Assembly: GCA_051362555.1 (NCBI GenBank)
Contig: CM120642.1
Location: forward strand, 1,612,001-1,676,000
Direction: 5' to 3'
DNA length: 64,000 bases
DNA from: Lingula anatina
Lineage: Eukaryota; Animalia; Brachiopoda
Part shown: positions 17,552 to 49,649 of the stretch, one piece after another
Layout of the letters: every line of letters begins with the position of its first letter
Numbering within the stretch: position 1 is the stretch's first letter
Notes under the pieces: model-generated
The model's database searches: none
What the model was told of the DNA's origin: nothing
Seen by the model: the letters and a program-made list of their open reading frames with translations, nothing else
Program-made: the position numbers and the translations under genes

Positions 17552-18752
17552 TGTCTGATATATTCTTATTACTATCTAGATTTTTATATGAGTTTCTAGC
17601 AAACCTGGTCATTATTCACTTTATTTGATTACTAGTAACGAATTTGTTTGTTTATTATTTTATTTTGAAAGAAAACAAGCTTATTTTTGTGGTTTTATTT
17701 TAAAGACTTTATTTGGAAAAGTAAGAAATGTTGGATAGTCAATTGATACTACAGGTAGCCAATAAACTAACTGATGTTTCTAGAGATATATCTCATGTCA
17801 GTATAGATTGAAATAAATGCCAGCTTGCTGTTCCAACAGGTAACAAAAACACATGGTGCCGTCTGCTTGAAAACTGCCGGCACAAAGCAAATAATTAATG
17901 TTTAGATTTAAAATGCATTATTTAGATAATGTCTACAGTTGTCAGTGCAGTGTGGTAGTATTTTCATAGCCTTGTGGCAAAGTATGTCTATGATATAATC
18001 CTCAGCTGTAGTCATTCTGACAGTCAGTGCACAGTTTTTACGACAGTGACAGAGTACAGCCAATTTTTCAGGTAGGTGGGTATTTAATATCTATAAAAAA
18101 TATTAAATACAGGTAGGGAAACTATGCATAACTCTTCAAGCTGGTTTTTACATGGTTTTTAATATATTGGTTTGCATATATTAAATAGATATACATCACC
18201 AGCATGAATTGAGGAATATAAGAGTCCTGATTTTCCCAGGTTTATGATTAGATGAAGTATTATTTTGCAGAACTTGCTAGATAATTACATAGGCTTGGAT
18301 ATGAAACTATCAAGGAAATGAGGGCTTCATCTCTTTCATTTATTATTTATGTAAGTGAAAAATTTCCATTTTATCATTTTTAACACGCTATCACCTGGTC
18401 ATGTGTCTACAGGTGTATTTATGCTTGATTTGAAATGATCAAGGTCTTGAATGAGGTGGAAAAGTTATTGCTTGCAAACAAATGATTGAAAGATTCGCGT
18501 AACAGTGGACTTTAATGAATAGCCCTGGTATGCAGCTTAACAAATGGCATACATAAGCAGAAATTCAAACGTGCACTTTATGGTACGTGCCTTACCGTTC
18601 CTTAATATTGAAGAAGAGAGAAGAAGGGAGCGAACAGAACTTTGCTCTTGATTGAACAGCACTTTGCTCTTAAGTCCTTGGTTGATATTTATACTGCACC
18701 GTGTGGTTGTGCCTGTTTGTTTGCTACAGGAAAGGCCCTGTGAAGTGTCACA

Positions 18753-18830
18753 ATGGAGGGTCGGGGGGAGGTGGCTCACAGCCCCAGGACTCAGAGATTC
18801 ATACACTCAATACTGGAGACTGTACTCTGT
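18753..18830 (+). CDS. Candidate alternative first coding exon V1 of gene B (MEGRGEVAHSPRTQRFIHSILETVLC)
   Basis: acaATGg, 26 codons, |GTAAGT in phase 0; acceptor ctacag|18730, possible upstream donor at 18071. Confidence 0.6.
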
Positions 18831-18938
18831 GTAAGTACTGGTGGATTGTGTGGATGTGTTGTGGTGGCATGGTGTGTATTGGATGCACTTTTGCAAGAGA
18901 AATTTGGAAGTGTTATATTTGGATAAGAACTATCCATT

Positions 18939-18984
<46 letters not shown>

Positions 18985-20433
18985 GCATTAGTCTAGTTGG
19001 ATTGCATTCCCTGAATTAACGAAAAATCCAATCTCACATACTACACACATCTAGGACTTGGACATGATTTGATTTTCTCTTTGATGTATATTTTCAGACA
19101 TTTATGTATTTCGTGAAGAATGGGAACTTGTCTCTTGGGTTTATAATACGTCATACCAAGGTTATCTCTCTTTCCAGCTTATATTTTAGGTGTGCACTGT
19201 GGCCAATTTGATGAAAGGGTATCCTAAAACCACCTGCCTCTTCAACATTTTCTTACATTTTTTTTCTGTAGTTGGTCTCTAAAACACACAAAGAAAAAAA
19301 AACTGATGTTCTTCAGATAGATTTAAAAAATAATGCATAGAATGTCATTTTGCCAAAAGCACTGGTTTATTCCTAATAGAATATTTAATATGATTTATGA
19401 TTATCTTCGTTCCCATTCTAGTTCAGAAAGACATTTACCAGATAAAAGGAAAAGCTAAAAATAAATACATTATTACATTTTATGATATTGAGAGAGGAGA
19501 TGGATTAAAGCATGGAGGTGATAATGAGATTGGACATTGATTAAAGTGGTGTTGTAGAAAAGACCAGTTGTAGGTATTTGTGGATCGTTTTAGCAAGGAA
19601 TCGCTGTGATCAATCAGCATTAAGTGGACTGCAAGTTAATAGGAACTGGGTGTGCCAAAAGTATGTGTATTTTGTCAGATTTAGCTAGAGTAAAAAAAAA
19701 AAAAAAACATCTGATTGTAGTAAAATGCACTCACCTCTATACTTCTGATACTTAATATAAATGATAAGAAGTCCTTGAAAAATCAGCAATGCTATGAAAT
19801 GGAAGAAATTGCAAGCAGATAGTAATAATTGAACAGATGGAGACGTCAATAAATGATATTTGATTTATCTGAGTGCTTTGAAGTATAGATACTAGGTCCT
19901 TTGAGTGTATTTCTCCTTTTATTAAAAACCACAGAAATCACAAGAAATTATCTTCCTAGTAATAGATAAAAAGCATTATGGATATGGGGTTAGGGGGTGC
20001 ATTGAGTACTTTGTTATCTTGAGAAAACTCAAAAGAGAAATATGTAGGACTATAGCCAGCAAGGGGTGATCTGGTATTTGCTTTACCTTTGTTGGCCAAA
20101 CTTTAAGAGAATTGTCATAAAACCTAGATTAAGTTTTGATTCAGAGCAGACCTTTTTCTGACCAAGAGGACAGGCCTTTCTAACCCTCCAATACCTCCCC
20201 ACCTCTACCCCCTGCCTACAGGCTTGGTACATTATTTTAAAAATCGTTTAAATTTTACTGTCACATTTATCTGGGAATGTCACTTGTATCACATGTGTAT
20301 ACTTGAAGTACGTCAAGGACTGTTAGGAAGAAAAACAGATCGATCATTTCTTACAGATTGGTTCATATCTGATCAGTTTCCAAGAACCAGATCATAAACA
20401 TGCCTTAAGCAAAGGTCAAGCAATATGATGCTC

Positions 20434-20750
20434 AAAATAGACAATTTGTTACTGATTGTGTAAAAAGTCTCATAATGAAAGTTAATGAAAATAAACAATT
20501 TGTTGCTTGTTATGTAAAAAGTCTCATAATGAAAGGTACTGAAAATAGACAATTTGTTACTTATTATGTAAATAGTCTCATAATGAAGATGTTGAAAATA
20601 GACAATTAGTTACTTTGATATAAAAAAGGCTCATAATGAAAAATACTGAAAATAGACAATTTGTTACTTATTATGTAAAAATTCTCACAATGAAGATTTT
20701 GAAAATGGACAATCAGTTACTTTGATATAAAAGGTGGCATAATGAAAACA
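20434..20750. repeat. Degenerate 53-54 bp tandem repeat, about 6 copies, last four alternating A/B
   Basis: gaaaatagacaatt..ttact...ctcataatgaa recurs near 20434, 20487, 20541, 20594, 20648 and 20701. Confidence 0.85.
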
Positions 20751-20992
20751 ACTGGTAAATCAAGAGGGTATCCAGTAGAAAGTGTTGTGAGCAGTATTGA
20801 TCAGTTCACGTTGACTCATACACTGCTGTGAATTGGAACTATTTCTGTGAAACAGCCAGAGTTCATTTAACTGTCTAGTGTTTTAGCCGGACTAAGGTAT
20901 TGTTCTTACTCACTGTTAGAGAAAGTTGAGGGAGACGGACGCTCCCTGTCTTATGCTGCAGAACTGTCACAGCACATGTTGTAACCATTATA

Positions 20993-21031
20993 ATGAGGAT
21001 ACATTTTGATGAGTTTATTCGCTTAGCCTGG
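20993..21031 (+). CDS. Candidate alternative first coding exon V2 of gene B (MRIHFDEFIRLAW)
   Basis: ataATG, 13 codons, TGG|GTAAGT in phase 0. Confidence 0.5.
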
Positions 21032-22047
21032 GTAAGTAAAGCCTTACGTCACATTATGTCAGTATGTGAGATATAAGAATATATGAAGTACAGTACACAT
21101 GTATGAGCAGTGTGGCAATGTCCAGGTATGACCGGCCTTCAAAGACTGAATTCATGATGGGGGAGGGGTAAAGTAGGCACTTACAGACTTTTTTTAATGT
21201 GTTAATATATATCAAATTTTAAAATAGTAGGAGGGTGTGTGGTAATTCATATTTTCCTTTACAGTAAGGACTTGCGATGCAAATGCAGTCCAGACATATT
21301 CAGTTTTTATGTTAATTTCTGTCTCTGAAAACGGACTGCATTGAGGCAAATTACTGAACAAATATCTGAGTATAAGCTTCATGATAAAAAAACTTTATTT
21401 GCATTTTTCTTCCAGAGACATTTTTGTATTGACAAGCATATGTTGTCGTTTTATCATGACTCACCATACACTATGTTTGAGATTATTCAGTGTATTAGTG
21501 CTGTGGTCTGTTGAAGGAAACCACTTGACTGACTGTAAATCAATTTTCTTTTTTTTAATTTTTACTTCAGAGTCCCATTTTCCCCCCTTTTTCTTCAACC
21601 AGGGAGGTATTAAGCCCTTTTTCATTCAGTTTTAATCCCTCCAATATGTTTGCATGGTATTTAATAACCTTTGGTCTAAAAATATTTTCTAGTTTTTTTA
21701 TTGTTTGAACTTCAGTATTTAAATAGTATTCAGGGAACTTTTGTTTGCATAACATTTCTTTTACTGTCATTTTCTTTTTCAGTGATATGCCATTGTTAAT
21801 TTCTGTCAAAACATCAATTTGTGAGATGTCATCATACTCCTATTTTATTTATAAATCATTTATTTTTTATTTTGGCATAATCATAACACACAAAGAGTCA
21901 TTTAGTTCTTTCACAGCTCTGATATTCTGAGACCAAAATTAATACTGTTGTCAGTAAATATTAGATGCACATTGGTTAAAGAGTTATAAGTACTAGACAC
22001 ATATAAAGAAAGGCTAAATAGTTTGTGTCATTAATTTAATAGTTGAC

Positions 22048-22192
22048 CAGAGTTGCCAACTATGCAAATTCTACGTATTAGTTACGATAGACCCCTGTTG
22101 TTCACAGGTGTTATTCTGTTGTTGAGGGAATGTTGGACAATATATGTGTGTAACTAGACACATTTGAGTAAACTGTCATGTTGGCCACTATG
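22048..22192. mobile_element. Second copy of the cagagttgccaac MITE family
   Basis: Same ends and internal blocks as 2563-2705. Confidence 0.6.
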
Positions 22193-26590: not shown

Positions 26591-28769
26591 TGTATACATG
26601 TGCTGCAGGGTGACGTAGATAGAGATGTACATATTTGCTGTAAGGAGATAGATCACGCAGACAAGATGAACTGAAGTAATTTGTGGCTTTTTGCTTGTAG
26701 TGACATACTATTGGCACTTATGTATACAGTAACTCAGTTAAGAAAACAAGCAGTGCTATAAATAAAGTGACTGTAATCAACAGACAGAGAAAAGGAGGGA
26801 ACCCCAGGTGTAATTGGATGTATATCATATAGTTTTTAAGTGGGCAGTGATGTAACAACACATTAAGAAAACTGTCATCTGGCTGCAAGAGCTGGTTTGA
26901 TGTTAAGTTTTCGTTTTACACCTTCATTAGGACTACCTGGAAACATGTTAGACATAACAAGATTCTGCTGGAGTAAATTGCATTAAATGTTCTCAGCTGG
27001 TTTCTGAAACCAAGGAGTCTATATATACGTATATCAGGTCGTAGCTGCAATTTACACTGTATACACTAGCCCCATACTGTGAATGGAGAGGATCCTGTGA
27101 GGAGGCCTTAACGTGGGCTTTGGAAGTAGTCAAAGAAGAAATTGCTCAATAGCTCAAGGAAACTGCAGGGGCACTTTGTATATCTTGCTACATCTTTGGG
27201 ATTTATGGAAACTTTTAGAACTTCAATAGCAGTGGAATAGAGCAGTTTTTACTTATTGCTGTGACTTTGTGGTTAACATAAGGTTTAACCATGTCACTAC
27301 CCCAGGTGGCTGGATCAGTGTTCAACTTTAACATGGATTTCAGTGTTAATCTCATGTTTTGATACAGCCACTAGAAAATTTGGATTTACATAAGATTACA
27401 CTGTATCACACACGTGCAAAGACCTTCAGTTGAATAGAAAACCACCATCATGCATAAATTTTACTTCTAGTGGGATTAAAAATGACTGATCACTTTTGAA
27501 TTGACTAAAACGTGCTTGATTCATGGGGCAATAAGTGTTTTCAAGTAGTTAAGGTTTTGGTAATCATTATTCTGCCTGAGAAAGGAATACATAAGTACAC
27601 ATGTACAATCTACGGACTAGGAACTTAAGAGTTGATCTCCATAAAAATTCACGCGTGACAAATGAATGTGGCTTCCTGCTGTTATGTTTCCTTTAATGGC
27701 TGAATTTGTGTCCCAAGGACAGAAGACTTCATTGTTTTACTTTTTTATTGGAAGAACCTGTGTTCATGCATACTTTAACATAAAACATAGCTTGTGACTA
27801 GACAAGCTGATGATTTTTGTAATGTGATTTGTCTTCAAGAAATTTACATGAGAGAGATGTACATTTGCTTATAAAACAATGGATTCAGCAACCAAGTCTG
27901 AAAAACAGCAAGTACCTTCCCAGGCTCAGGACTTGAGATGCTCTTCTGCCTCGTAGAAGTCATGTAAGTCATCTGTTGATGGATATCTTGGAGATAAGAC
28001 ATCAGATTTGATATCCAATGTGGAATGTTCAGGTCACTACAGAAACAGTGGGAGTATGATACTTCTGTAGATTAATACACCAGAGGATTTGTTCTGTGAT
28101 GTCTTCTTTCCATCCCAGGCTATCATTGGTGGGGTCATGTCCTGTTTTTTTCATACTTGACTGTTTATTTCTACTTAATTTTAAAGGTAATGGTTTTCAC
28201 AGAGGACAGTGTCAAACAAGATTTTTTTAAATTTGGGCATGCAAGAATTTTATATATGATGGTTTGTTTTATCATGTTGAAAACATTGGAAAGAAACAAA
28301 CACTTTTTGTTTATTCCCTGTGGAAATGATGTTTTTTGAAAGAATGTCATTAATGCTATACACTGCAGTGGTGTATATAAACCAGCCCTTTTTGAGGACA
28401 TCTCATAAACAGAGCTAACCAGCGCCATAGAAATAACCTTCATCAATGAGGCAAGGTGTGAAAGGCGATAATGTGTTACCATCTCTTCTACAACTATATA
28501 ATTTTGGATTAGATGCAATTTGTTACGATTTCTCCTATTAATGAAGAGAAGACACATAAAGCTTTACACATAGAAGTGCATGACATGCGGCATATATGTC
28601 AACACTGGGGTCAAAATGTTCATGACCCCATGCCCATTTAAAAGAAGATAATATATTATGCCCCTACCAAATTTAACTTGTACAATTTGAAGAAAAAGGG
28701 GCACTAAAAATTCAACCTAGGTCAAACGTACAAAGAAGTCACAGAAGTTACAAGGTGTTCGAGACAAAG

Positions 28770-28862
28770 ATGGCTATAGAGAAGAAGGTTGGATTTAGGG
28801 AGAGGCTGTCTATTAGCTATGTGAGGCGGGCGTCTGTTAACTTGGCCAGCATGCTGCTGCAG
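28770..28862 (+). CDS. Candidate alternative first coding exon V3 of gene B (MAIEKKVGFRERLSISYVRRASVNLASMLLQ)
   Basis: aagATGg, 31 codons, CAG|GTGGGT in phase 0 followed by T-rich intron-like sequence; RRAS motif. Confidence 0.6.
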
Positions 28863-30940
28863 GTGGGTTTGATGGACAAACTTTGTTTTTTTTTTTCACT
28901 AAAATCTTTGCTTCAAGTTATCTGTGTGTCATTTTTTTTCAGAATTTACTGAAAACTAAACTGTTGTATCTGCATACCTTTGCATATTTCAGTAGCATTT
29001 CCAGCTGTTAATTAAGTGCTTGGTATTTAATTCATTTTTATATGTATTTATATATTCATATATACTCATTATTATATTTCTGACACCCAGGGTCTTGAAC
29101 CGCTTGTAGACTAGCTGTCTCTGATACCCCTGATATTTTTTAATATATGTCATATGTCAATCTTTCTTATACAATATTTCTCTATAGAGGTGCCTCAAAT
29201 TTCAGATTTCAGTATTTATTTATTTTTGAGAAACTTCTTTTGACTCACACCTTGAATTCTAAAACAGCTCTGGAATTTCAAAGGAAGAAAAGGTGTCCTA
29301 ACCGTCCCGGGGGTTTTTGAGGTGTGTTTCAATATTTATAATGAATTGTTCCTATTTGAAAGGGGCATGGCATGCTTTTGATGGTGGAAATGTAAGGAGA
29401 TTTAAGGTAGTGTTCACAAACTGTCTCAGTTGAACCATTAATGGACTAAGTGACATCACTGGATGGGTGCAGTACATGGAGCACCTTTCTCAACCTGGAT
29501 CTTAAAACCACATGCTAAAAAGAAAAGGTCATTCGGAGACAGAGGCCCTTCTTACATTGAGTCAGTTTTCTGTACTGCAGAACTTTGAATGGTCCTTATG
29601 CTATGAGGGGCTTTATTCCCTTTCACAAACCCCAATGTACCAGTAGATGAACTTAGCTGACTGTGTGTGTGTGTGTGTGTGTGCGCTTGTTTGTGAGCTT
29701 CCTTTAGGTAACTTTCTCACATAATACCCAGGCAATTGCCCATCTCTCAAACTGGAATGTTTCGGAAAACAATACTATTCAATGTGTAAAAGTCCCACTT
29801 ACAAGGATAAGATCATGTTAGGCAATTCCAGGTCTAAGTGAGACCTGATGTGAACTCACATGTAGTCAGTCTAAGGACATGGGTCACCCACTGATATCAC
29901 ATACACATACCTGAGGTGGGGGAGGCCTTTCTGTAGAAAGGAGGCGGTACAGTCAAGTAACTCAGAGAACTCAACAACAGATTTCCCTTCTCCAGATTCT
30001 TGGTATTGACTTGAAAGTAGCCTCATTGTTCAGAAATGTTTTATTTTAATCCCTAAGTAAACTAGATGACTGATTGAGACTGAAACTGGTGATTGATGAA
30101 CTAGTCATTAGGTGTTTATCGGGAGGATTCAGTTAATTGGGTCAGTTAACAAGTGATTTCATGCTTGATTGGATAGCAGTGGAGTGATTTGCTTTGATTG
30201 GACCATTACTATTCAAATACAACTTTACAGCAACACATATATAGAAAGGGTTATGTATGGAAAGGTACTACATTGGCATGTTGGGATATGGCAATTTTAC
30301 GGAATATCTGAACTTTGGTATCGAGTAGAGATGGTGTATGAGGTTCAGTGACACTGGAATCGGAGAATTAAGTTTTGATGATTCTGGAAATGGATTTTCA
30401 GATGACTTAATTTTGTCGTATTTGTTCAAATTAGTAGGGGGTGTGTGACTCAATTTATGTATTGAATCTGACTGACTCATAAGCGACAGCAGGATTTAAC
30501 ACCAATTACGAAATCACTGTCACCAGGAGCAGAGCGACAGCATTTTCACAAGTTTCAAAATTACCTACACGAAGGTGTTGCGCAACTTAACCACTGTTTG
30601 CACTTTGACAGTTTGGGAGAAGAAAACGGTGTCTGTAAAACTTTAAGTTAATAATGGACCTTCATGTGCTGTGATTTTAACAGAGCATTAGCTGAGGGTA
30701 CGTAACATTCAGTGTGTTTTTTTGCTGAAGATAGTGAAGACAAGACAGCTAACCAATTCTGGAAATAATAACCCTATTTGAGAGCCCCGGCCTCCACTTC
30801 CACTGGGATATGCGAGTGCTGAAGTCAGAGAAGATCTCTGTAGAAATTAACGGAAATTAACCTTATTAGAGAATACTTTTCAGAAGATCGAGGGATTAAT
30901 ACAAGAACTGGAATTATCCTAGGGATACCTGTCAGTCAAA

Positions 30941-31006
30941 ATGAATACAATGCATAAATCATTCACTGTCACAAGTCTTCAAGGACTGCTGACAAAGTTT
31001 GTAGAG
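30941..31006 (+). CDS. Candidate alternative first coding exon V4 of gene B (MNTMHKSFTVTSLQGLLTKFVE)
   Basis: caaaATG, 22 codons, GAG|GTATGT in phase 0. Confidence 0.58.
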
Positions 31007-34000
31007 GTATGTACGTCAAAAGTTTGTATACAAAGGTGTCTATTTCTGTCCAGGTTTTGCTTTCCAGGTAATTTATGGTATACAAGTACACGCATATTAT
31101 ACCTACAGTAGCCATTAAAGGTTATCATGTTTATTTTCTTTTCTTGTAACTGTAGATTACTTCAAAGCATGGGTTTTCTTTCCATAATTTCTTATTTGAG
31201 TGTTTTCCCTACCCTCATCACTGTAATATGTTCTCAAGTCTTATTTCACAGTCACTCACCATTGCTGTTGTAGACAGATCTCCAGTGTTGTAACTGTTTA
31301 CTGGACTGTTTGACCAGATGTTTAATACATTTCTCAACAGAAAGTGAAACCTTAAACTGAGCTTAATCCACTACCCTCCATCACAGACAAACAACAACTT
31401 GTACTTACTGAGTACATGATTTTAATCTGATTTTTAAAATGTGAATTAGTATTCTCTTGTTGTTGTTTAACCATGAGGGGTTCTCAGAATATCCAGAATA
31501 TTAAGGCAGTCTAGTAAAAAGGGGAAATGAATAATAAAGGACTGGAGTATTTGTAATCAGAAAGAAAATTGAAAGAAAAAAATATTTTTTCTGCTTATGA
31601 TTTGTCCAATGCAATCGAAATCCAAGGCTCTTTCCTATCATCATGGTGTAACACTTATAGTCTTGCATTTACTGTATTCTCAGCATATCCTGAAATTACA
31701 TTTGAAATATGTAGATTGTATTGATAAAAATCAAATTAGGAAGTCCATAATAAACACAATATTCTTACCAGGAAGGAAAGGGCAGGTACTCTGTCCAGAG
31801 GCTCACCCCAGTTTTACCATTCTACATGTGTAAGGGTGACCTTTTACCAACAGATCCTCAAAACATGTGGCTATTGATCTACTAGTAGGCAACTGAGAGG
31901 TCTTTGTGCAGATGCATAGTTTGATACCAGTATTGCATCCACAGTTATGATTTCACTGGTATACATATTAGATCTATGATATTAAAACCCACAAGGTAAG
32001 CATTTATTTAGAACAGTCTTATGGGAGAAATATAAAATGGTGATTTTATTTGTCTTATGAGGTTTTAAGTACCGGTATAGGAATGGGAATAGTTGCCTGT
32101 ACTAGTATTGATTAAGGCAAAGATAATTGTCTTCTGCTTGTATTGTATGTTGTTTCATTAACTGATATATGTACCAGTAGTACGATAGATGAAGTGCTTC
32201 TTCTGGTAAGTCAGGTTCTTGGAAAAAAAAATATTTGTAGAAATCTTTGAAGAAAACTTAAAGCAAAAATCTGAAGGGCATCAAATAAACCATGTACTTA
32301 GTGTCGGATAAGAGGGTGTTTTTTTATATTTTTAAGTTTAAAGCTGTCTGTGTTGCATGCAGTAATCATTGGTGGTAAAAATAGTTTAAACTCGTGACTT
32401 AGCTTGTGTGCTGGTTTTGGTTTTTGGTGCTCTACTGTTCTCTGCTTTTTTTTTCTTTATGGAAAAACTAAATCTGAAGGTCACGATATGAAACAGCATG
32501 ATGTAGACAAACATATTAAGTGAAAAGGAATTTATGTCAAATTACTCTTTCTGGGTCAGATGGACTGTTTCTGCTGGTGACTTCAACTCTGTGCATTTAC
32601 ACGATTTTTAAATTAACTTTAGGACAGACTGGCATTGTTTACAGGTGTTTTTCTGTTGTTCATAAGGCATTATAGGCAATAGATGATCTACCAGTACATT
32701 ACTAGTATTGGAGTACTGTCCTGTTGACAACCCTGTAACTGACTGGCCCCCAGTGTTGAGCAGCTCAACCTCAGGCACTTACAGCTAGTATTTCCTACTT
32801 TCTAGTCTGGAGGCATGTGGAGCTTGTAATACTGTGGTTTTAACACAAGTTGTTAATGTCAATACCCATTACTCGGATTACTGCATGCTAACTACCATAA
32901 CTATACAGGCCTGTCTGCATATATATATATATTTGTATATACTACAGGGGAGTTCGAGAGGGGGGGGTAGGATTTGAAAAAACTGCCTTTTGAAACAGTG
33001 TATGGCCCTTTACAATGTGTTCAGTATGCTAGTAATTAAGGTGCAGAATTTCTGAGGAAGTTCTGAGGGAGCTTCATTTCTAAATTGCCCTAGATCACGA
33101 GTTAAAATTTTCGTAAGAAATGTAAATGGAATATATATTTACAAGTAGGGGAAGTGGATAAAAAAAGTTAAGTGTTTGAGTTGTGTTTATTCCAGTATTA
33201 TAGCTAAAAGACACTGATGTGAAGTGATACTTCCCTGTTAGAAATGACTACCTTGACTCTACCTGGCAGGTGCTATAATACTGATATGCTGGTTAGTAAG
33301 TGTAGAGATCAGAGAAATGTTTATGTTGGACTATGTTACAAAACACCTGTGAGATTACTGGTACAGGTGTATGGAGAGGAATACCAGGGAAGATTACACC
33401 TATCTGTTATATAATATCAGAGTTATATAGCCAGTTTAAAAAAAAAAAATTAAAAAAAATAAAAAAAATATTTATTAATTAATTTATTTATTTATTTACC
33501 TCATAATGATAATGATTTTGATAAAAATTATAATTGGGCATGGGTGGAAAAATGGAAGGATCACATATGTTCCAAAAAATTACTCTTACGTTTGATTGCA
33601 ATTAAGCTGTTTGTTTGATGTAACTTTATACCATTAGGACAATTAGGCCAGGAGAATATAGCATAATATATATTTATACATACAATATTACAGAGAATCT
33701 TGATTGCAGTCATATTTATGTGTAAAAGAGATGTATCTCGGTGTTTATGCTTGTGCCATAGCTGTTTACCAAGACTCCAGTCCTGTGCACACTGGATCAT
33801 TATCTGAGCAAACAACACATTATCAGGAACACTACTTTACTTGATTGCAATCGAGAGGTATCGCTCACATGTGATAAAGAGGTGGTACAATTGCAGTCGG
33901 ACAGTTATGTAAGTAGATCAACACAAAGATTAATACCTTGTCAGATTAAATGATGATCCAAGGTAAACTGAACAATACTGATAAACAACAGGGGCCTTCT

Positions 34001-35172: not shown

Positions 35173-35277
35173 ATGGAGAGTCATGAGAAGAGAGTGAAAA
35201 AGTACCAGGATCCAGCCTCCAAAAAGGAGTCTGAATCAGTGGAATGGGTCCCCCTGGTGCTGAGCAAGTTGTTTTCT
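35173..35277 (+). CDS. Candidate alternative first coding exon V5 of gene B (MESHEKRVKKYQDPASKKESESVEWVPLVLSKLFS)
   Basis: gaaATGg, 35 codons, |GTAAGT in phase 0; TATA-like tataag at 34971. Confidence 0.6.
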
Positions 35278-37000
35278 GTAAGTTGTGCTTGTCATTTGTG
35301 GAAGTTCTTGAATAGATGGTGGTGAACTTACATTGTACATTGAAAGAATGACTCTGCCAGATTTAGATACTACTAGTTTATATCTTCCTTTGGACAAAGC
35401 CATACTGGAATACCACTGGTTTTTGTCCTTTTAAGTATAACATAAAGTGTCCAAGAAGTTATTGTACACAGGTTTAAAAGATTTAGAATGTTAGATTATT
35501 TGTGTAAAGACTCCTCTGAGATTATGCATTCAGGCCAAGCCTAGACATGTTGTACTGTATGCTTAGTCCTTGATGTTCTTTAGTCCCCGTGTTAACTTAA
35601 TTGACTATACAAATGAGCTGATGCATTGTGCTGGGAAGTTCAAGCACAGGTTTTACCTGTATTTATCAACATAATAAATGGTGTTCTACAAGAGGCAAAG
35701 TGCAGGGATGGAGGTTTTGTCTGTGAGAGAGGATGAGGTTCAATGGAAATTCCACTTATTGTGCATCCTATTGGGAAAGTTTTCTGGCTGAGTTGATAAA
35801 TTATTAGTAAAATTGGGACAGGAAGTGGTGGCCTTGTCCTCTGTCCCAGTATGTACGCATGTTGTATATAAAAACATGGCCCATGTTATTTGATTAAGGA
35901 ATTATTTGCCCTTGATTTGATATAAACTGTGGAGCTCAGTGGGCCACAGTCTGCACTCTGTGACTCCACTTTGATAAAGCAGATTAAGAAATGTTACATT
36001 TTTTTTTTGTGGCATTTGATTGATGTTTTATACCTTTGTTTGTTTTATGATATGATTCTAAGTGAAAAAATATTCCATCAACTGTGGCATTCTCAAAGTG
36101 TAAACTTAACTTCTCAGCAATTAGCTGCAGAGACATTGGAGACAACAGAACCGTGCACAGGTATTAGTTGCAGAAAAACAGTCCTGAAATCACTTGTATT
36201 ATCAAATGATGATTGAGAAAAACACGATTATAAGTACATGTAGGCGGTGGATGAGAGAAGGTTAAAAATGGGAACAGTGTGTCTGTATATTATTGATTTT
36301 CTGCTGCTGTCCCTTCATTTATAACTGAAATGTGTTAGGAGGTTTCGCCCACCACAACAATTCCATTTTCACTTCGCATTTTTCATTGCTGTATAATTTC
36401 AGTGCCACATGTGGAAAAGAAGTCCCATTCACAGCTGGCTCTTAACTAGGTTGCTTTATTTTAAAAAAAAGTAAAAAACAAAAGAGCCCCCCTCCCACCA
36501 CCACCACCGACCCAACTCGGATTTAAAGTGCATGTAAGCATTCAGTAAGTTTGTAGCCATTCAAGTGGATTGCCTCAGGTATAGAGTAGATTAGTAGAAA
36601 ATCCACTTCATTAAAATGAGTAGAAACACTCCACACCAAATATAGGGCTTGTTTTGTGGTGAGGACTTCACAGGAAATGTGCTGTTCACTAACATGCCTT
36701 TACTAAACCAATAACCAGGCGCAATGGATCCAAATGTAGCTGGCTCACCAGCCAAACAGCAATTTGACTTCTGCTCTATTGTTATGTTATTTTCCTAAAA
36801 AGCATCATATCACTTTGCTCATCAGCTAATGGGCAGTATTTCCAATCTTACAGTGTGATCATTATAAGCCTACCAAGGCAATTTCAAATGATGGGGTACA
36901 TTGGCATTTTTTTCCAAAAGGTGGTTATGCCCCCTTTCCCCACCTTCAATACTTACAAACAAATGACTATTGTTGCTCTGTTCACATCAAAATGTTTAAT

Positions 37001-37043
<43 letters not shown>

Positions 37044-37655
37044 CAATTGCAATTATGTGGTCTTATTGTTGCCAAATGTCATCATGTTGAATAAGGAATA
37101 GGAAAGATCAACTCCCCTGATTTTTATCTCGCTGAGGGATAGGCTTCTGATGATGATATATTTGTTTGTCTTGTCAACTTGGGAGTTTTTCAGGACATGA
37201 ATAGTTAAAAAAGGATCTAAGATAAGGAATAGGATATCAAATTAATTATAACGATTGCCTGTAAATTCTGCAGATGTTTGTGATACTCAAGGGATCAACT
37301 GAACTCTTTTAGCAATCCAATATACTTAATATATAATAGAACTGGGGAATTTTTCAGTATGTGAATAGTGTAGAATCTAATATAGGAAGTGGTTCACATT
37401 GGATGTGATGATAATGAACTGAGAACTACATCCAGGTATTTATGAATGTCTTTGGGGGGGGGGGGGGGGGGGGGGTCAACTGAACTATTTCAGAGTCCAC
37501 AATACAATAGTATACTTCTTTCTGTCTCATATTTTATGGCATTATAAATTTTCATTTCTATCAGATCAATAACAGGGCAGATAGTGTACTTTTACGCCAC
37601 TTGTATGTGTGTTTTTCAATTTCTGGTATTTATTTTATTTGTATTATCTCATTGA

Positions 37656-37656
<1 letters not shown>

Positions 37657-37698
<42 letters not shown>
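37657..37698. repeat. (TAT)n microsatellite
   Basis: Perfect trinucleotide run. Confidence 0.95.
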
Positions 37699-37700
<2 letters not shown>

Positions 37701-38674
37701 AACTAACTCATTTGATGATAACTGTGTGGTTGTTTCATTCATGCTGTAAGTCATTTTCCATCATTATATATGACTGTTTACAGCCATGAAAAGTGCATAT
37801 TATATATCATAGGTACTTGCTTAGAGAAGGTCAAGATCTTACGACACACAACATTTGTCCCTCCTCCACCTAGGCAAATGTTTGGTTACACTAATGGAGT
37901 ATGTTGTTGGACAGGTGTAATAATGGTCATCTGAAGTGGAGCATGCTGTTCTCATATTTGTGACAATATTGTGAAGGACTGTTGCCTTTTAAAGGAGAAT
38001 ATTAAGTAGTTACTCTTGCATGTAATAAGATTTTAAAAAGAAGTTGTATTTGATTCTTTCACTCATCAAACATGCTGTGAACTTTGTCAAAGTTATTTCT
38101 TCTAAACTACTTCAAGACAATCTGAGGCTAGTTAACTAGGGAAAAATTGGTTGTAAAAAGCAAGAAAAGGGAACAGCAAAAACACATTAAATAATTATAG
38201 TTAATTAAGGTAAAGCAGCATGCACTGTGCAGTACTGAATTACCCTATACAATCTCTGCAGTGAAATTTCAACATCAGGTTATTTTTGGGGAAATAAATT
38301 TTTGATTTTAATATTATAATATTCAATTTGTTTATCTTTTCATAATAATTATTTTATTAAAATTAAGTAGGATAATTTGTTGGGAAAGCTCTTTACTCCA
38401 TACATGTACAACACACACACTAGTACATGTACTAACAGGTAATAGACAGGTATTTGTAGCCCTAGGATAGAAAGGGGCACAGCATTAGTCACAGATAATC
38501 ACATGTGATAATCAGCTACTTTTTGGGCCTTAAAAAGCTAACATTGTTCAAATATGGACAAACAGGACCTGGAGGAGAGACTGCGCAATTTTTGTGCCAC
38601 CCTTGGACACAACTAAGATCTAATAAACGGATATTAGATCTTAGGACATAGTAACAAATTTTGTCCATGTGCCA

Positions 38675-39185
38675 CCAGATTATTTTGTTGTGATAATAGA
38701 GAAGAAGAACATAACAGCAGGTGACTCGAGGGTCAGTTTTTTGGTAGACAGGTGAAATAGGCTGGACATATTGTTGTGTATCTGATTGAGGTGAGATAAA
38801 CAACACTGAATTCAGTGAAGAGGGATCAGATCACAGGAGTCACCACTGTGAAGGAAGACAGAATATAAGTATTTTCAGGAGCTGAGGAGGGGCCATATTG
38901 AACTGTAACCAAAGTGTGCTGCCAGATTTTATGACGTGAAAATAGAGAAGAAGAACATCACAGTGGGGGACTCTATGGACAATCTTTTGATGGAGGTGTA
39001 CATATTGCTGTGTACCTAGTTAGAGTGACATAAACTACTGATAGAGGAGGGGCCTATTTAGAATCGCCACCATAAAAAAATTGAGCCTTAGAGGTGTCAT
39101 GTTGAACTGTAACTATTACAGTGGCACCACCTGATTACTCTGTTGTGAAAGTAGAAAACAAAGACCAGACAGCGGGTGACTCCAG
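38675..39185. repeat. Three degenerate direct repeats, about 210-245 bp apart
   Basis: gatt...gtga..atagagaagaagaacat.acag..gg.gactc block near 38677, 38922 and 39131. Confidence 0.65.
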
Positions 39186-42100
39186 GGATAAATAGTCTAC
39201 CAAGGGCACTGGTCTTGATTGCAGGTAATTAGTGAATGCTGTGAATGAGCTAGGACAAAGACAGTTAGTGCACTGGCAGATGGGCACTTGGAGACCTGAT
39301 TTGGACTAACTGTGGGAGATAGTGAATGAAGGTTTATTTCACAAACCATACCATTTGGATACTGCTGCATTTGCTACTCCAGCATGTGTGTTTTACCTGA
39401 TGATTTTATGAGATGACAAAATGCTTTGTTTCTGAGTAGGATAGGAACTGTGTCGTTATGCTGGGAGGATATCATACAAGATTTATTGTACCAGACTGCC
39501 TATGTGCATTAGTGATTATGATTTAATAATTCTTAAAACTTCATTGATACCAGTACAGGATTAACCAGTCTACTCACACTGGATTAGAACTGTTACCACA
39601 ATGGAGGATGTTATGAATGTTACCACGTGATATTTCAAAAACAAAGGAAGTAAGATTTGTGAAAGTTTTCATGTTTTGTTCTACGTTGCTGTAGAATTTA
39701 AAGAAATGAAAATACCCTAATAGAGGAGACACTGCCATCAGTTTGTAGAAATTTTCCTCAGCTCATTTTAAGGAAGCAGGAAATTTGGGCAGATCCGAAA
39801 TTTTTGAATACGTGTCAGGAGGCATATGTAAATTACGCAACAGGACTGAAATCTCATGACCTTGAAAAAAATGTGTGCATCGGCCTATTGTATTTTAATG
39901 TAAGCTGAAGACCTTCACCAAATATGTGTCTAGAGAAAAATAAAAAAGGCTTCGTTGAATCATTAAATTAATTGGCAGTACAGATCAAGACAAGAATTCC
40001 CATATTTGTAAAAGGACGAAGTTTTATGCCATTATAAGAAAAAAATAGAACTAGAGAGACCCAAACACAGTCATTGAGTGGGGTTACATTATGCATAATT
40101 TTCCTGCCTAGGAGTCCAAGGTTGATTTCAAACCCAATCAACATTCCTGGAGACACTGGCATAGTAGAAACAGAATAATTGTGTCCCTCATAAATGTCTG
40201 GGTTCAAATCAACGTTTCTAGAGTCAGTCAGACATGAAATGAGCACACACTTTACTATGAAGTGGTTATAGGATATATGGTTACAGAGGAAGCCGAGTCT
40301 TTAAAAATAAATTTGTGTACGTGGACTGGCTGTTCAGTGACATGTGAAGATGGAATGTGTTTTCTTCTGAACGTGCATAAGATATTTAAGACTCTTCAAA
40401 CTGGGATGACAGTAACCAGTGAGAACATTTGCGGAATACGTATGACATCTTGGATTGGTTCCCAGTTTCATTTTATTTTGACATACATGTAACTTTGACA
40501 TAACTTTGGTTGGTAAAAAAGTTTACACATCGTTTGCACTCGCTGAAGTCCTCCATGGCTCCTGCATAATGCAACTTTTCATGCTTCTGGATCAGGGATG
40601 TGAATGTCATGTTAGACTTCCCTGGGTAAAGCAGTAGTTTTAACATTGTTTTGCTTACATCTTGGATCCATTCCCATTGCTAAAACGCATGTGATAAATG
40701 TTATAACTATTTCAGTCGTGGGAGTTTTTTTTATCGCATATGAACAGTTGACAAGCAGTCTTTGAAAAAAATTTCAAAACTGGGAGTTACATGTATGTCA
40801 AAATAGGAGTTGTACTTTTATAATTTATTGACAGGACAAAACTTATTCTATGAATTGAAGGAGGTGTGACACTGGTCCTCAGACACTGAAACTTATAGGA
40901 GGTGCTCTAGCTTTAAATGAGCCAAACTACCTGTTACCATCATAACTACAAACTACAACTGACTTTAATTTGTGATCAAGTTCATTTAGCAGTTTTGCCT
41001 TCTTTTTGACTGCTGTATATTGTGAGTTGTGATGGCCAAGGTAAAGGATATATCTCAGAGCAGGGATGAAGGGGAGGAGGCAGGGGGAGTCAGACAGGGA
41101 CTACAGAGTGCTGTGTCTAACGAACACTGGATGGCATGGGCTGTAGCACTGTTTGCTGTGAGTTGAGGTCTTTAATTTTTTTGAAGTGTAGATGTCACAG
41201 TTTGGAGATCTTCTTTTTACAGTTGCTCATTGTTCACGGCTAATTAATATCCAGATGTTTGTGTTTTGTTGGATACCACTTGGTTTGTTTTCACTGGTGG
41301 TTTGAAGTATTAATCTTAAGTTAACTCATCATCTGAAATAACTTCAATATAAATATGCATAATCCATAGAACAGTCTTCACACGTACTCTCACATGCGCA
41401 CACACACACACACACATGTGTGCAGGCGCGTCCGCGCAACCCAAATACCTTGATAAACTCACAAACTTAGACTTTATTTGATATGCATTGTGGATTGGAA
41501 ATTCCAGTTTCAGGAGAGTGTTTAATATGCAAGTTTAGTTTGGTGGTAATTTAATGCTACATTATTTCGCGCAGCCTCAGTCACAAGACATTGGTTGATA
41601 TGCACAGTCACGTTTATTTAAAATGTGTTTTTGTTTTCTTTTTTGTATTCATTCAATGAGTTACAAGCCTGATGCCAAGAGGGCTGCTGAAGTGCACCAG
41701 TTTTTGTATATTTATGTACTAATTAATCAATTTTACTTGCTATTTTTAAGCATTTGGTCACAACATGTGAGAGATTTTGAGTGTCATTATGTCACGATTT
41801 GTAAAAAGTAGTTTTCTCCTTAGACAGAAGTCTATATCAGTAGCTCCAGTTTACCAAGCACATTATTATTCAAACCAAGAATTTTCATATTGGTTAAGAT
41901 TATGTGTTCTTTGGGGAAAAGGGGATGTTCTTTAGGGAAAAGGGGCTCCAGTCCCGTCAGCATGCATGGAAAGACCAGGTGTCCTATATTCCTACAGTTG
42001 AGCATAGGATCAACTAGCACAATTTCATTTTTTATCACAATCTGACACAGTCATCAGAAGACTATGACCTTGCAGTTCTGTAGAAAAGATAAGGTGTTTT

Positions 42101-45100
42101 GTTCATGTTGTGAAGAATGTAATCCAGTCTTGATGTTATTAATAGTAGAATGGCATATGAAGAAAGAGAAAGGCAATTATTGTGAAAAAAGGATAATATG
42201 TATGCAGGTCGGTAGTGATGGCAACCTTGCATATGATAATAGTTGGCTTGGATACATATGTTAAATGTATCCTGGATGCATGAGAATTTGAAAACTAAAA
42301 CCGACAGGAATGTTTCTTTTTGCTATAGTTAGCGTTGTATCGAATGTTAGGATAAGCCCTAGAAATATTTATTTAGAAAAAAAGGAAAGGACTAAGCAAG
42401 GAGGAGAATGGTATCTTCTGCATGAGTGAAGAAAACAAGACAAGGTTCCCCAAAAGATTGTATGTCTTAAAAAATCAATCTTAACAGAGAGATAAACACA
42501 CCTGATTGGACAGGGAGAGAAAGATGATTTATTTTGATGTAAAAATCCCTTCTCTCCAATCCAAGCTGGAACACAAGAGATTTCTATCTGTTCATTTGGT
42601 GCATCAAAGATAGATTGGAAATATCCAAGAAAGAGAAAAGAAAACACTGGACTAAATGTCAAGTGTTACTGCTGGCCTTTTATTCTGTAGTTGATAGATG
42701 CAACAGGAGACAAAAACTCCTACGTGAAAACTTTGATGTTAGTGTAGCAGTTAATGTAATGATTTTTTCCTCGACAGAAGGGGTATTGAGAAAAAACTTG
42801 ATGTTGTTTTTTGGCTGTCTGCCTGCTCCTTCACAGTGACTGTAAATTCAAAGCATGCCTGTAAAATTTATGTATTAACCCTGTCAAAAATGATACTGCA
42901 GCAATAAGGTACTAATTAATTCTCTGTTTGCTATGAACTCTTGAAGTGTTTTGAACACATGGAGTCTTATTAGGCTCATCCGTTTGTGCTGAAAATAAAT
43001 GCGTGCAAGCAAATAATCATATTGAGAGATGTGCAGGTATGGAATTTGAACCTCAGCAGTAGCACTTAACTAAATTGACTTATGTAGTAACAAAAAATTG
43101 ACACACAGCATGAAATTCAATTATGCTGGTATAAAAACCACTTCCATGCCATTTTTTATTTGATTTTATAGACCTGTATACATGAGGTTACTCACCTGGC
43201 CTAGGCTCATACATATATATAATACTATGTGTACTTTTAGGTTTAGAGCACATTCAGAACAACAGACTAACAGATACACGGATCAAATATGGCAACCCAC
43301 TAAAAAGCTTGCTGCTTAATTCCTAATTAGACATTGAATCTATAGATTCCCCTTGGGGATTACACAGTAAGCATTCAAGAAAAAAAGTTTTGAAACAATG
43401 CTGACAACAGGCCAGAACTATCTTCATATAGCCATTGTTAAAACAAGTCAGAGCTTCTCATTAGTGAATCTTACTCTTAAATTAGATGTCATATCGAGGT
43501 AGCAGGTATATTAAGCAAAAACCTCTACACTGGCAATTGTTCGATAAGGCTAGATAAAAGTAAAATGTCAGCTAAGGGCACTCTTTGTAAACAGTGTCAG
43601 TAGATGGAATTTATTTTTGTATTTAAAATATTTGATGTTTTATGAGCTTAACAGACAAATTTTAGGGTTGGTCAGGATTTTTCATTCATTATTTTTTCTT
43701 TCTTTTAGGGAGCGGGGGAAGGGGGAGTCTAAGCCACAATGTGAGCAGTTTAATAGTGTAAATAAACAGTGTAAATAAATAGTGTAAATAAACATTAAGA
43801 TTTTTCCTGGAATCATTCTTAAATTTCTGCCACTTTTATGACCACTATAATACCTAATTTCCATTTGAAAAAAAAAAAAAAAGGAGTAAAAATCAGGTTT
43901 CTCAAAATGAGGGTTATTCGCACTGGTAAATCAACTTATCAGTATTGATTGGCCTAACGATGGCATTGTCACAGCAGATACTGGTGGTTGTGTGACTTCA
44001 GTCATACAGCTTACTGATTGAATGTTGTTCTTAATACAAAGAAAGGCTAAGATCAACTTAGGTCATTGCCATGGATGCAAGTGACATCTCTTTATCATGA
44101 AAAGTTGAGTTCGTGAAGCGTTTTTTATCTTTGTTTTCCAGAAACATCCTTATTACTTTACTTTGGCAGGATGAAATATGGATTCATTTAAACGTTATCT
44201 TAGTTATCTTACAGGAAACTGTTGAATTGACTTGAGGAAAATATCTTTTCTGATTCCAAAACCTGGGCACTGGTGCCAGAATATCTCGGCTGATTCTGAT
44301 ATATTGGTAAAGATTGCAAGGCATTGGCACTGATTTTTAGGGCAACTAGACAGTGATTTTAGACATTATCAGAATAACCCAACAGAAGTTGTTAGCAAAT
44401 TTTTTTAAGTTGCAGCTGAGTATTGGGCTTGGGGAAAAGATTGACTTTATTAGAGGTGAGTGAGACATGCCAAACAGAATTCACATGAATAATTGGAGGA
44501 TATAATATCAAAGCAGTTAAAGCACCAAGTAGTACATTCAATGATTATATAATGATGTATATTATGTGTCCTTTTTGATATGAAGTCCTTTACAAATGCT
44601 ATTAGGATAAGAGTTATGTTGTTGACGTGCACATTAGTCTTGTATATCAATACCTTGTTACAAATACATGTAAACATGGTTTGTTCCCAGTTTAGAGTTG
44701 GTTTCAGCATCTACTTGTCTGTAAGATGCCTTGTAGTAAGACGTATGCAATAATTACACAGGTATGGCAGGGGATATTATTGGAAAAGATGGCCAGTTGC
44801 CAATAATTTTTATTACTAGTATAATATGTATGCAATACATTTTTAAAGAGGAAGGAGATGTTTTCATTTAAACTAAGGGAAGTAAGATACTAGTATGTAC
44901 AAATACATTACATATTAATGAGTTGGGCAGAAAGTTTTTAAATAAAACTGATAGTAAGTAAACTTTAAGGAGAATTTAGGTGTATATCAGGGATCCAGGT
45001 TCTTGCTGATATCCATGTCTAAATGTTATGTGCATGGGATGTTGATATTTCTACCTGCATTTACGGTGCATTCCCTGTGGTGTTGTCTTGTAAATTGATA

Positions 45101-45413
45101 AGCAGAATCTGGCCTTTATTTTTCAGTGAAATGTGGTGTGCTTATAGATAATTTGACTTATATTTCATTTTTTTAATCTGTGTAAGGCTTACATAGCACT
45201 TTAGTTAAAATTGAGCAATCTTGTACCCAAGAAGTTATGATTTTACTCCATGAATTTATAGTCCAGAACCTTCATGTGAATGGCGTAGTAAAGATTTATG
45301 TTGGCCTAAAATTGCACATGTGGTGTTTAGCACCAAGTTGGATATATATGCAGGAGGTGGTGAGAGCTGGCATGTAAAAACCTTCTTTACAGCCTACTGG
45401 CAGGACCTCCAAA

Positions 45414-45671
45414 ATGCTGGATCCTATGGTGGGGTTGAACATGAAGTGGGATGGGAGCAGGCGTTATTATAATGGCTACGGTTACAATAGCAGCCATAAT
45501 ATCAGTGAAAGCAATAGCAGTAACAGTTTGGAAAGATACCTGAAGTTTGGCAGTAATAGTAGTAGTAGTGAGGGGGATGGTCTTGATGGTGCCAGTGTGA
45601 GCAGCAGTAGTAGCAATAGCAGCAGAGCTCTATTGGAAAAATTTGCTGATGTGTATATGAAAGTCATGGTG
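45414..45671 (+). CDS. Candidate alternative first coding exon V6 of gene B (86 aa, Ser/Asn-rich)
   Basis: caaaATG, 86 open codons, GTG|GTAAGT in phase 0; closest to the constant exon at 47177. Confidence 0.7.
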
Positions 45672-47176
45672 GTAAGTATATAGTTTTTTTGTGTGTGTTC
45701 GCATAATAGATGTCTAATACCTATGCCAAGAAGGTTATGCTTTGACCTTTGTTAGTATTTTAAATTACAGCCCAACTCAAAATGTTATAGACAGAGGTTT
45801 TAATGATATTTTCTGGATAGGTCAGATATATGCTGATTTGGGTGTTGGTCAATTAATTAATTAATCAATTGATAATAATGAAAATTAAAAAAGCAGAAGT
45901 CTGTGCTCAGTAAGTGTTTTTCTGGTAATGTTACCTGTATGTGTAAATTTTTCTTTGATTTAGTTTAATTTAATACGGTTGAAATTTTCTCAGAAAGGAT
46001 TTCAAATGGACATTAAATGTTGTGAATGATAAATAGGTATCGGTATGTGCAAGTGCATCTTTACTACCATACGTTATATTATGTGTTCATTCATATAATG
46101 GTCACACAAAGCTATGTCCAATGACAATTTTTGCTGTTTATTTGTGGATGTGTGAAATATTTTAAAGGGAATTTTTGATGTTTATGAAGTGTGTTTGTGT
46201 GTGTTTACATTTTTTGAGTGCAGGTGAAAGTGCTCAATAGCTGTGATGTTTACTGTGTACTAGTAGCTGATCAACTCATATAGATACTTGTAAGAAAAGG
46301 TCGGACTTATATATACGGGTAGTATACTAGACTTGCTGTGTGATCAAGCAAGATTCCATGGGATTAAAAGGAGAGTGGGGTCAGGAATAATGGCAGAAGA
46401 GCAAGTGTGGTGCAGCAACTAATGAAATCTGATTAAATTTATCCATAGATATTTCTGGGTATTTTTTCTCATTATAAGTCCTGTAGAATTAAGCTAATTT
46501 GTTTGCCGTGTCCTGATGCCATTATCTCTGCTTGGGTTCAATATATTGTTGACAGCAGGCCAATCAGATATGTAAGAATCATTCCTGTAGAAACATTCTG
46601 GGCGTTCCTTATTTCCTTGAAACATATGCTCTAGGAACAGACAGGTAGAAAAGTAAGAAGATATAAAGCTGTGTGCTAGTACAGAATAAAATGAGTTAGA
46701 TGTTGGTGAGGTCTGAAATATGCCAACAGATGAACTGATTGCCCAGGTTGCAAAGTAATTATATAAGAAGATGAAAAAAAGGTATTAAGCTGTGTTCAGA
46801 ATAAAATGATTTAGATGTTGGTCTGAAATATACCAACAGATGAACAGCTAGATTGCTGAAGTTGCAAAGAGATATCTGTATACTTTTCCAGACATGTAAC
46901 AGCTTGGTATAAAACTGTTCTATCCAAGCAAACTACAGCAATAACAAAGTCATCCTTATATTTTATTTTTATTTTTATCAGGAAGGCATTTACCATAAGA
47001 GGGCATACACAATTCATATGGATATATTTCAGCTCATTAACTGTTAAATTTCTATGTAATATATCCAAATTTAATAATAACCAGGCATCCACTGGTTCTG
47101 AAATTAGGGTTACTATGGTAACAGATACACACCTGAACAACCTGACTAAAATGTGTCTACATTTTCATCTTCCCAG

Positions 47177-47393
47177 GGCCGGGATCAGAGCCAGACCGAG
47201 TCCGCCATGGAAGATTTCCGTGGCGTCATAGAGGCGGAAACAAGCTGGGCGGACGTCCACAGTGGAGAGGATGAAAACAAAGAGCGTGGCAACTGGACGA
47301 GTAGGGTGGAGTTCTTCCTGGCCTGCCTGGGGTATGCTGTGGGACTGGGAAACATATGGAGGTTTCCTTACCTTGTCTATAGGAACGGTGGAG
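47177..47393 (+). CDS. Gene B exon, TM1
   Basis: ttcccag|GGC in phase 0; [41 protein letters not shown]. Confidence 0.95.

Positions 47394-48606: not shown

Positions 48607-48650
<44 letters not shown>

Positions 48651-49598: not shown

Positions 49599-49649
<51 letters not shown>

What the first reader, a model, noticed from the sequence alone, without database searches (positions are those of the whole stretch)
18730..47393. Candidate array of six variable first exons feeding one constant SLC6 transporter
Between the paralogs lie six ATG-initiated frames (18753-18830, 20993-21031, 28770-28862, 30941-31006, 35173-35277, 45414-45671). All have a purine at -3 and all end exactly in phase 0 at a GT donor (four GTAAGT, one GTATGT, one GTGGGT), matching gene B's phase-0 acceptor at 47177. 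An in-frame gccATGg at 47207 would give a seventh, short form. This resembles the variable-plus-constant layout of clustered protocadherins and UGT1, and exceeds the few alternative N-termini known for GlyT1. The exons were found by eye, and short ones such as V2 could be chance.
Basis: partly seen in the sequence, partly recalled or inferred. Interest (0 to 1): 0.85.

Follow-up and report, generated by a model that had tools for sequence, protein, structure and literature searches.

The report
Ten alternative starts, one brachiopod transporter
An amino-acid transporter gene of the lamp shell Lingula has about ten alternative start exons spliced onto one shared body, likely separate promoters giving it different short heads in different tissues, and the array sits where molluscs join two such transporters into one double protein.

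Summary
The array is real and larger than reported. All six exons are at the stated coordinates, and phase-0 ATG-to-donor frames exceed shuffles (14 vs 3.8). The gene is a Lingula anatina GlyT-like SLC6. RefSeq isoforms X1-X12 already join all six exons, two missed coding exons, an ATG-only start and the internal start to 47177. It is plectin-like, not protocadherin/UGT1-like: exons are short, non-paralogous and share no promoter word. A nemertean SLC6 gene has six such starts, so the layout is not unique. Two new points: seven heads end in a hydrophobic, likely helical stretch; and gene B's tail motif ties it to the C-half of a tandem double SLC6 of molluscs and Owenia, while gene A ends at an in-frame GTAAGT donor. 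A-to-B read-through is untested (about 25%).

The parts
6593..6817 (+). Gene A alternative coding 5' exon (phase 0)
   Evidence: N-terminus of RefSeq P0133; candidate
9474..9521 (+). Gene A second alternative coding 5' exon (phase 0)
   Evidence: N-terminus of RefSeq P0132; candidate
11181..17086 (+). Gene A body, SLC6/SNF transporter; last mapped exon 16808-17086 ends in phase 0 at CGG|GTAAGT, partner acceptor unknown
   Evidence: tblastn exon map, Pfam SNF, sequence
18753..18830 (+). V1, 26 codons
   Evidence: RefSeq X7; not examined with reads
20993..21031 (+). V2, 13 codons
   Evidence: RefSeq X9; not examined with reads
21099..21125 (+). Missed exon, 9 codons, donor GTATGA; no hydrophobic end
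   Evidence: RefSeq X10, sequence
28770..28862 (+). V3, 31 codons, holds an RRxS kinase-type word (motif recalled)
   Evidence: RefSeq X6; no joint and almost no depth at its donor in 4 runs
30941..31006 (+). V4, 22 codons
   Evidence: RefSeq X8; low depth in 1 of 4 runs, no listed joint
31900..31995 (+). Missed non-coding 5' exon (start unknown, 31900 is a placeholder); donor AAG|GTAAGC; no open in-frame ATG, so translation would start at 47207; weak out-of-frame ATG at 31976
   Evidence: 4 joint reads in run X4; frames
35173..35277 (+). V5, 35 codons
   Evidence: RefSeq X5; 11 joint reads in 2 of 4 runs
41032..41157 (+). Missed exon V7, 42 codons, donor GTGAGT; most used start in the runs laid
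   Evidence: RefSeq X4; 24 joint reads in 3 of 4 runs
45414..45671 (+). V6, 86 codons, Ser/Asn-rich
   Evidence: RefSeq X1-X3; low depth, no listed joint
47177..47393 (+). First constant exon of gene B, phase-0 acceptor; in-frame ATG at 47207
   Evidence: RefSeq X12 starts at this ATG
47177..57940 (+). Gene B constant body: SNF domain plus a tail of about 380 residues
57227..57253 (+). Tail motif MEDKCIQTD shared with C-halves of tandem double SLC6 proteins (coordinates computed)

Best explanation
Gene B is one GlyT-like SLC6 amino-acid transporter gene whose first constant exon is joined by splicing to any one of about ten upstream exons, each likely a first exon with its own promoter, so that different tissues or stages would make the same transporter with a different cytoplasmic head. 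Shown: eight coding exons in annotated isoforms, three joints in reads, unequal use between runs. Inferred: separate promoters; phase 0 kept because all exons must enter one acceptor in frame; independent origin of the exons rather than duplication. Inferred and untested: seven of eight heads end in a hydrophobic stretch of about 11 residues, predicted helical, some 35 residues before the transporter core, which would dock on the membrane or a common partner and set location or activity, while the rest of each head adds its own signals. The array fills the 30-kb gap between A and B, which are probably the counterparts of the two halves of the double SLC6 of molluscs and Owenia.
For: Enrichment over shuffles. 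RefSeq X1-X12 differ at the GRDQSQ junction in 10 ways. All 3 of 3 listed joints go from a donor to 47177, none exon-to-exon. Joint use differs among 4 runs (chi2 49.8, 0 of 100,000 permutations, 39 reads). No strong acceptor within 250 nt above any exon (best 2.3-7.5 bits; random windows 75th percentile 7.0; 7 of 8 training acceptors 11.7-16.7; crude matrix). Frames are intact in both the window and RefSeq alleles, 6 differences in 264 residues. Last 11 residues are hydrophobic: within-exon shuffle 0 of 20,000 (6 exons), p=0.004 against 72 decoy frames (7 exons). AlphaFold puts a helix at V1 residues 11-25, at low confidence (pLDDT about 52). Best solved relatives are GlyT2, GlyT1 and PROT.
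Against: No 5'-end data. 3 of 4 reader donors in the laid stretch had no listed joint, and V3's donor bin had depth 0-0.03. Upstream donors were not examined with reads. RefSeq models are automated; that they rest on RNA-seq introns is recalled, not seen. Run differences may reflect individual or study, since tissues are unknown. The hydrophobic end was noticed after the fact, fails for the 9-codon exon, has only a marginal helical moment (p=0.046) and is absent from 6 Lineus heads. No homologue of any head was found.
Confidence: 0.75

Rival explanations
1. A and B are one gene: the donor at 17086 splices in frame to 47177 and gives a tandem double SLC6 like that of molluscs and Owenia; the array supplies internal promoters for single-domain forms.
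For: Perfect GTAAGT donor in phase 0 at the end of A's open frame; only 14 GTAAGT in the 30 kb. B's tail carries a TQT-type motif at +148; 11 of 12 long mollusc/annelid relatives have it at +119 to +153, against 2 of 185 single-domain homologues; similar C-end. Best tree has A, B and the double halves as one clade (73/79). The RefSeq allele of A shifts frame before the donor, which could hide a fused model.
Against: No fused Lingula protein found. Clade support is weak and A and B are unresolved. The doubles' linker is conserved among them but A's tail and B's head score no better than other SLC6 ends. A's tail holds DNKGFE, a word typical of free tails (53 of 183 tails). A+B linker would be about 116 residues against about 85. 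The donor could serve an unmapped last exon of A.
Confidence: 0.25
2. The exons are mutually exclusive internal exons, or trans-spliced, behind one shared upstream leader and promoter.
For: V1 has an acceptor-like AG at 18729/18730; continuous plus-strand depth lies above V7 (38839-41157).
Against: No strong acceptors; no joint into V5, V7 or the 31995 exon was listed; passages read list no brachiopod among trans-splicing lineages.
Confidence: 0.1
3. Only two or three starts matter; the rest are leaky cryptic starts or annotation noise with neutral peptides.
For: Only 3 donors seen in 4 runs; 8 of the 14 statistical candidates are in no model; no outside conservation found.
Against: Phase-0 excess, intact frames in two alleles, strong start contexts and the shared hydrophobic end would not be expected from noise.
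Confidence: 0.15

Closest known systems
RefSeq Lingula anatina 'sodium-dependent proline transporter-like' isoforms X1-X12 (XP_013386198-200, XP_013386202, XP_023930989-997)
   Same: Same gene; all six exons and the internal start are modelled.
   Different: Automated models only; no paper on the locus was found. The window is another allele.
Plectin (PLEC) alternative first exons
   Same: About a dozen first exons giving short unrelated N-termini on one constant body; heads set location (PMC8468861, passages).
   Different: Vertebrate cytolinker; promoters and targeting are proven there, inferred here.
GlyT1 (SLC6A9) a/b/c and GlyT2 (SLC6A5) a/b/c
   Same: Closest solved relatives; N-terminal isoforms (PMC8699752, passages).
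   Different: Three N-terminal forms each, against eight coding heads plus short starts; not orthologues in the tree.
Clustered protocadherins and UGT1
   Same: Tandem variable 5' exons, each spliced to common constant exons.
   Different: Their variable exons are large paralogues that encode the specificity domain and share a promoter motif (PMC1885805, passages); not met here.
Lineus longissimus GlyT-like gene, isoforms X1-X7 (XP_064650705-714)
   Same: Six distinct coding starts joined to one constant exon of an SLC6.
   Different: Different subfamily; heads unrelated to Lingula's (0 of 42 pairs p<0.05) and not hydrophobic at the end.
Tandem double SLC6 of molluscs and Owenia (e.g. XP_033-type scallop, abalone, chiton, clam 'uncharacterized' proteins P0157, P0158, P0160, P0143; Owenia P0004)
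   Same: Two SNF domains in the order of A and B; C-half tail motif shared with B.
   Different: One polypeptide with a conserved linker of about 85 residues; mollusc N-half is degenerate (about 29% identity to B). Lingula A is intact and annotated apart.

Membership tests
Clustered protocadherin / UGT1 type | Tandem variable exons each spliced to common constant exons | tested here: met
Clustered protocadherin / UGT1 type | Variable exons are paralogous and of similar length | tested here: not met
   9-86 codons; 1 of 21 protein pairs p<0.05; best DNA score 26 vs random 95th percentile 26.75
Clustered protocadherin / UGT1 type | Variable exon encodes a large specificity domain | tested here: not met
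   0 of 6 heads scanned match Pfam; the whole SNF domain is constant
Clustered protocadherin / UGT1 type | Conserved motif upstream of each variable exon | tested here: not met
   no exact 7-9-mer in more than 3 of 7 upstream regions, within the null; degenerate motifs not excluded
Clustered protocadherin / UGT1 type | Stochastic promoter choice per cell (protocadherins; recalled) | not testable with these tools
   needs single-cell 5' data
Plectin-type multiple first exons | Many short unrelated coding 5' exons spliced to one exon | tested here: met
Plectin-type multiple first exons | Each exon has its own promoter | tested here: inconclusive
   no strong upstream acceptors, run-dependent use, no start-site data
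Plectin-type multiple first exons | Heads target isoforms to different sites | not testable with these tools
   hydrophobic ends only suggest it
SLC6 amino-acid transporters (GlyT/PROT/ATB0,+ group) | SNF domain; best solved matches in this group | tested here: met
   Pfam E 5e-209; GlyT2 4.5e-196, GlyT1 1.8e-191, PROT 3.9e-186, others weaker than 1e-159
SLC6 amino-acid transporters (GlyT/PROT/ATB0,+ group) | Na/Cl-coupled uptake of a given substrate | not testable with these tools
   needs expression and assay
Lophotrochozoan tandem double SLC6 | C-half tail with TQT-type motif | tested here: met
Lophotrochozoan tandem double SLC6 | Both domains fall in the doubles' clade | tested here: inconclusive
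   73/79, not shown, not rejected
Lophotrochozoan tandem double SLC6 | Conserved linker | tested here: not met
Lophotrochozoan tandem double SLC6 | Two domains in one transcript | not tested
   no reads examined at 17086; no fused Lingula protein

The most novel reading that the evidence does not exclude
A and B are one ancestral tandem double SLC6 gene. Lingula keeps the A-to-B read-through splice, and has filled the linker intron with about ten promoters whose short helical heads replace the whole first transporter domain, so one locus switches between a two-domain transporter and many single-domain forms.
Probability: 0.25. Interest if true: 0.75.

Novelty: new member of a known kind. Interest (0 to 1): 0.52.

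Why it matters
SLC6 N-termini are known regulatory handles (recalled), but vertebrate glycine transporters have only three forms each. Eight natural heads on one body give a ready panel to test how a short cytoplasmic segment sets transporter location or gating, and their shared hydrophobic end, without common ancestry, would be convergence on one function. The side finding may matter more: a conserved two-domain SLC6 across chitons, snails, clams and an annelid, for which my searches found no paper, and a brachiopod locus that shows either its split or its unfused state.

Tried and rejected
No whole genome is held for this window. No RNA holder listed in the index; only same-species raw runs were offered. 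Paralogy among variable exons: rejected. Shared promoter word or TATA box: none (TATA-like in 1 of 7). V3 resemblance to a Lineus head seen by eye: not significant (p=0.13). Linker homology between Lingula A/B ends and the doubles: none. The TQT listing was mis-indexed and was redone. Exon threading failed for gene A and stopped at residue 397 of B, so its splice matrices rest on 6 donors and 8 acceptors and are crude; four of five trial acceptors were off by one base and are not used. ESM Atlas gave no usable hit for V6. Rfam: 0 matches in 37500-44000. The search of V6 against 1.84 billion representatives was still queued when I stopped, so it gave no result. Long two-domain hits whose halves are sisters (Solemya, Tegillarca, Antedon, Gigantopelta P0165) were set aside as likely merged neighbours. 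Trees used 88 and 31 of 238 extracted domains, picked by hand for taxon spread.

Full report
Observation. The six frames, donors, start contexts and the phase-0 acceptor at 47177 are as described. In 17300-47150, ATG-initiated open frames of 10 or more codons ending in phase 0 at GTAAGT number 5 against 0.72 in dinucleotide shuffles, and at GTRAG 16 against 5.5, with 0 of 100 shuffles reaching either; other phases and the minus strand are near background. Counting each ATG once gives 14 against 3.8, maximum 11 in 200 block shuffles. Six of these 14 are exons with outside support; eight are unverified, about four being expected by chance.

Identity. The first constant exon matches a Lingula anatina RefSeq protein at 100%. 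Twelve of its 13 cluster members were read. Their N-termini are V6 (X1-X3), 41032-41157 (X4), V5 (X5), V3 (X6), V1 (X7), V4 (X8), V2 (X9), 21099-21125 (X10), a lone Met (X11, exon not located) and the internal ATG at 47207 (X12, two accessions). So there are eight coding heads and at least two short starts. The heads differ from the window at 6 of 264 residues, so the window is another allele and the frames are intact in both. That such models need RNA-seq introns is my recollection. The body is an SNF domain closest to GlyT2, GlyT1 and PROT among solved structures; the substrate is not determined.

Reads. Four of nine same-species RNA runs were laid on 27500-47499, 6-25% of each being read. 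Three joints were listed, all GT..AG and all into 47177: from 35277 (11 reads, 2 runs), 41157 (24 reads, 3 runs) and 31995 (4 reads, 1 run; non-coding). Use differs among runs (0 of 100,000 permutations); tissues are unknown. In run X2 only 6 joints account for depth 40 at 47197, which hints at donors upstream of 27500 (inference; 66 loose-end rows were not shown). The region upstream of 27500 was not examined with reads, so V1, V2, the 9-codon exon and gene A's donor rest on annotation or sequence alone.

First exons or cassettes. No exon has a strong acceptor within 250 nt upstream (crude matrix), and no joint into V5, V7 or the 31995 exon was listed. Separate promoters are the likeliest reading but were not shown. 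The passages read on trans-splicing name no brachiopod (PMC12460157).

Kind of array. UGT1 and protocadherin variable exons are large, similar, near-equal in length and preceded by a shared motif (PMC1885805, passages). Here the exons are unrelated in protein and DNA, carry no Pfam domain and share no upstream word. Plectin, with a dozen first exons giving short targeting heads, is the closer model (PMC8468861, passages). GlyT1 and GlyT2 have three N-terminal forms each (PMC8699752, passages). Baseline from 8 other gene sets compared: a Lineus gene has six distinct coding starts on one constant exon, a spider gene about five, another Lingula gene three plus an internal start, Lingula gene A two, abalone double two, and three bivalve genes one. 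Gene B is the richest seen but not alone.

The heads. The last 11 residues of the six heads of 22 or more residues are more hydrophobic than within-exon shuffles (0 of 20,000), and seven heads exceed 72 decoy frames (p=0.004; helical moment p=0.046). AlphaFold models V1 residues 11-25 as helix at pLDDT about 52. The pattern was seen after the fact, fails for the 9-codon head and is absent in Lineus. I infer a membrane- or partner-binding helix that sets location or activity, at about even odds.

The double-transporter link. Searches returned 1400-1760-residue proteins with two SNF domains from a chiton, snails, bivalves and Owenia, with a linker conserved among them; one is encoded on a 6,099-nt Logan contig, likely a transcript. 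B's tail has a TQT-type motif where 11 of 12 of these long relatives have it, against 2 of 185 single-domain homologues, and a similar C-end; likeness to dynein-light-chain and PDZ-binding words is recalled. The best tree holds A, B and the double halves as one clade at 73/79, neither shown nor rejected (quick tree). Gene A's last mapped exon ends in phase 0 at CGG|GTAAGT, 17086, and the RefSeq allele shifts frame before it. Against read-through: no fused Lingula protein was found, the linker is not conserved and A's tail has a word typical of free tails. I put read-through at 0.25 and B's orthology to the C-half at about 0.75.

Literature. Nine searches (listings and abstract starts only) showed no paper on this locus or on the double SLC6. 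The Lingula genome paper has no 'transporter' or 'SLC' in its main text (PMC4595640, term search; supplements not opened and may bear on this). The 2004 survey of variable first exons was not held. Most subscription papers are outside the library. The scan's own notes held nothing on this sequence and one similar layout on an Rh transporter.

Verdict. A real, plectin-type array of about ten alternative starts on one SLC6 gene, already present in automated annotation, with two untested leads of higher value: the convergent hydrophobic ends and the tie to a tandem double transporter.

Noticed in passing
proteins P0004, P0005, P0006, P0008, P0009, P0119, P0143, P0156-P0161, P0254: Conserved tandem double SLC6 in chiton, gastropods, bivalves and Owenia; mollusc N-half degenerate (about 29% to gene B), linker and tail conserved; named 'uncharacterized'; no paper found.
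   Followed up: partly
window 16885-16900: RefSeq gene A protein changes frame here relative to the window, giving a different, shorter tail; assembly error or allele.
   Followed up: partly
window 6593-6817 and 9474-9521: Gene A has its own two phase-0 alternative coding 5' exons; the first holds a 69-nt internal duplication.
   Followed up: partly
window 38839-41157: About 2.3 kb of plus-strand RNA depth above V7 in 2 of 4 runs, no long ORF, no Rfam match, three diverged 66-nt repeats at 38683-39203; long 5' UTR, non-coding RNA or reads from a repeat.
   Followed up: partly
window 18318-18350: Eleven-codon ATG frame ending at GTAAGT in phase 0 with a hydrophobic end, in no RefSeq model; possible further start. 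Others at 20742, 22737, 29341, 33244, 41623, 44580, 45237.
   Followed up: no
window 18730-18834: Acceptor-like AG above V1; entered in phase 0 it reads 34 codons to a stop in another frame over V1, a possible last exon of gene A.
   Followed up: no
window 14058-14467 and 51688-52274: Both genes carry a tandem repeat (67 nt x6, 88 nt x6.7) that copies the acceptor and start of the same homologous exon (RDAVI...), and B has a 78-nt duplicate at 54391-54536 at another exon start.
   Followed up: no
window 55480-55533: 18-codon cassette exon in B's tail, skipped or replaced in RefSeq X2 and X3.
   Followed up: no
window 49555-50310: 252-residue open frame in a gene B intron with a weak zf-RVT match; looks like the end of a non-LTR retroelement.
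   Followed up: no
proteins P0181, P0265-P0270: Lineus longissimus GlyT-like gene with six alternative coding starts; multi-start arrays may recur in invertebrate SLC6 genes.
   Followed up: partly
window 1-350: End of another open frame with a 27-nt tandem repeat at the window's left edge.
   Followed up: no
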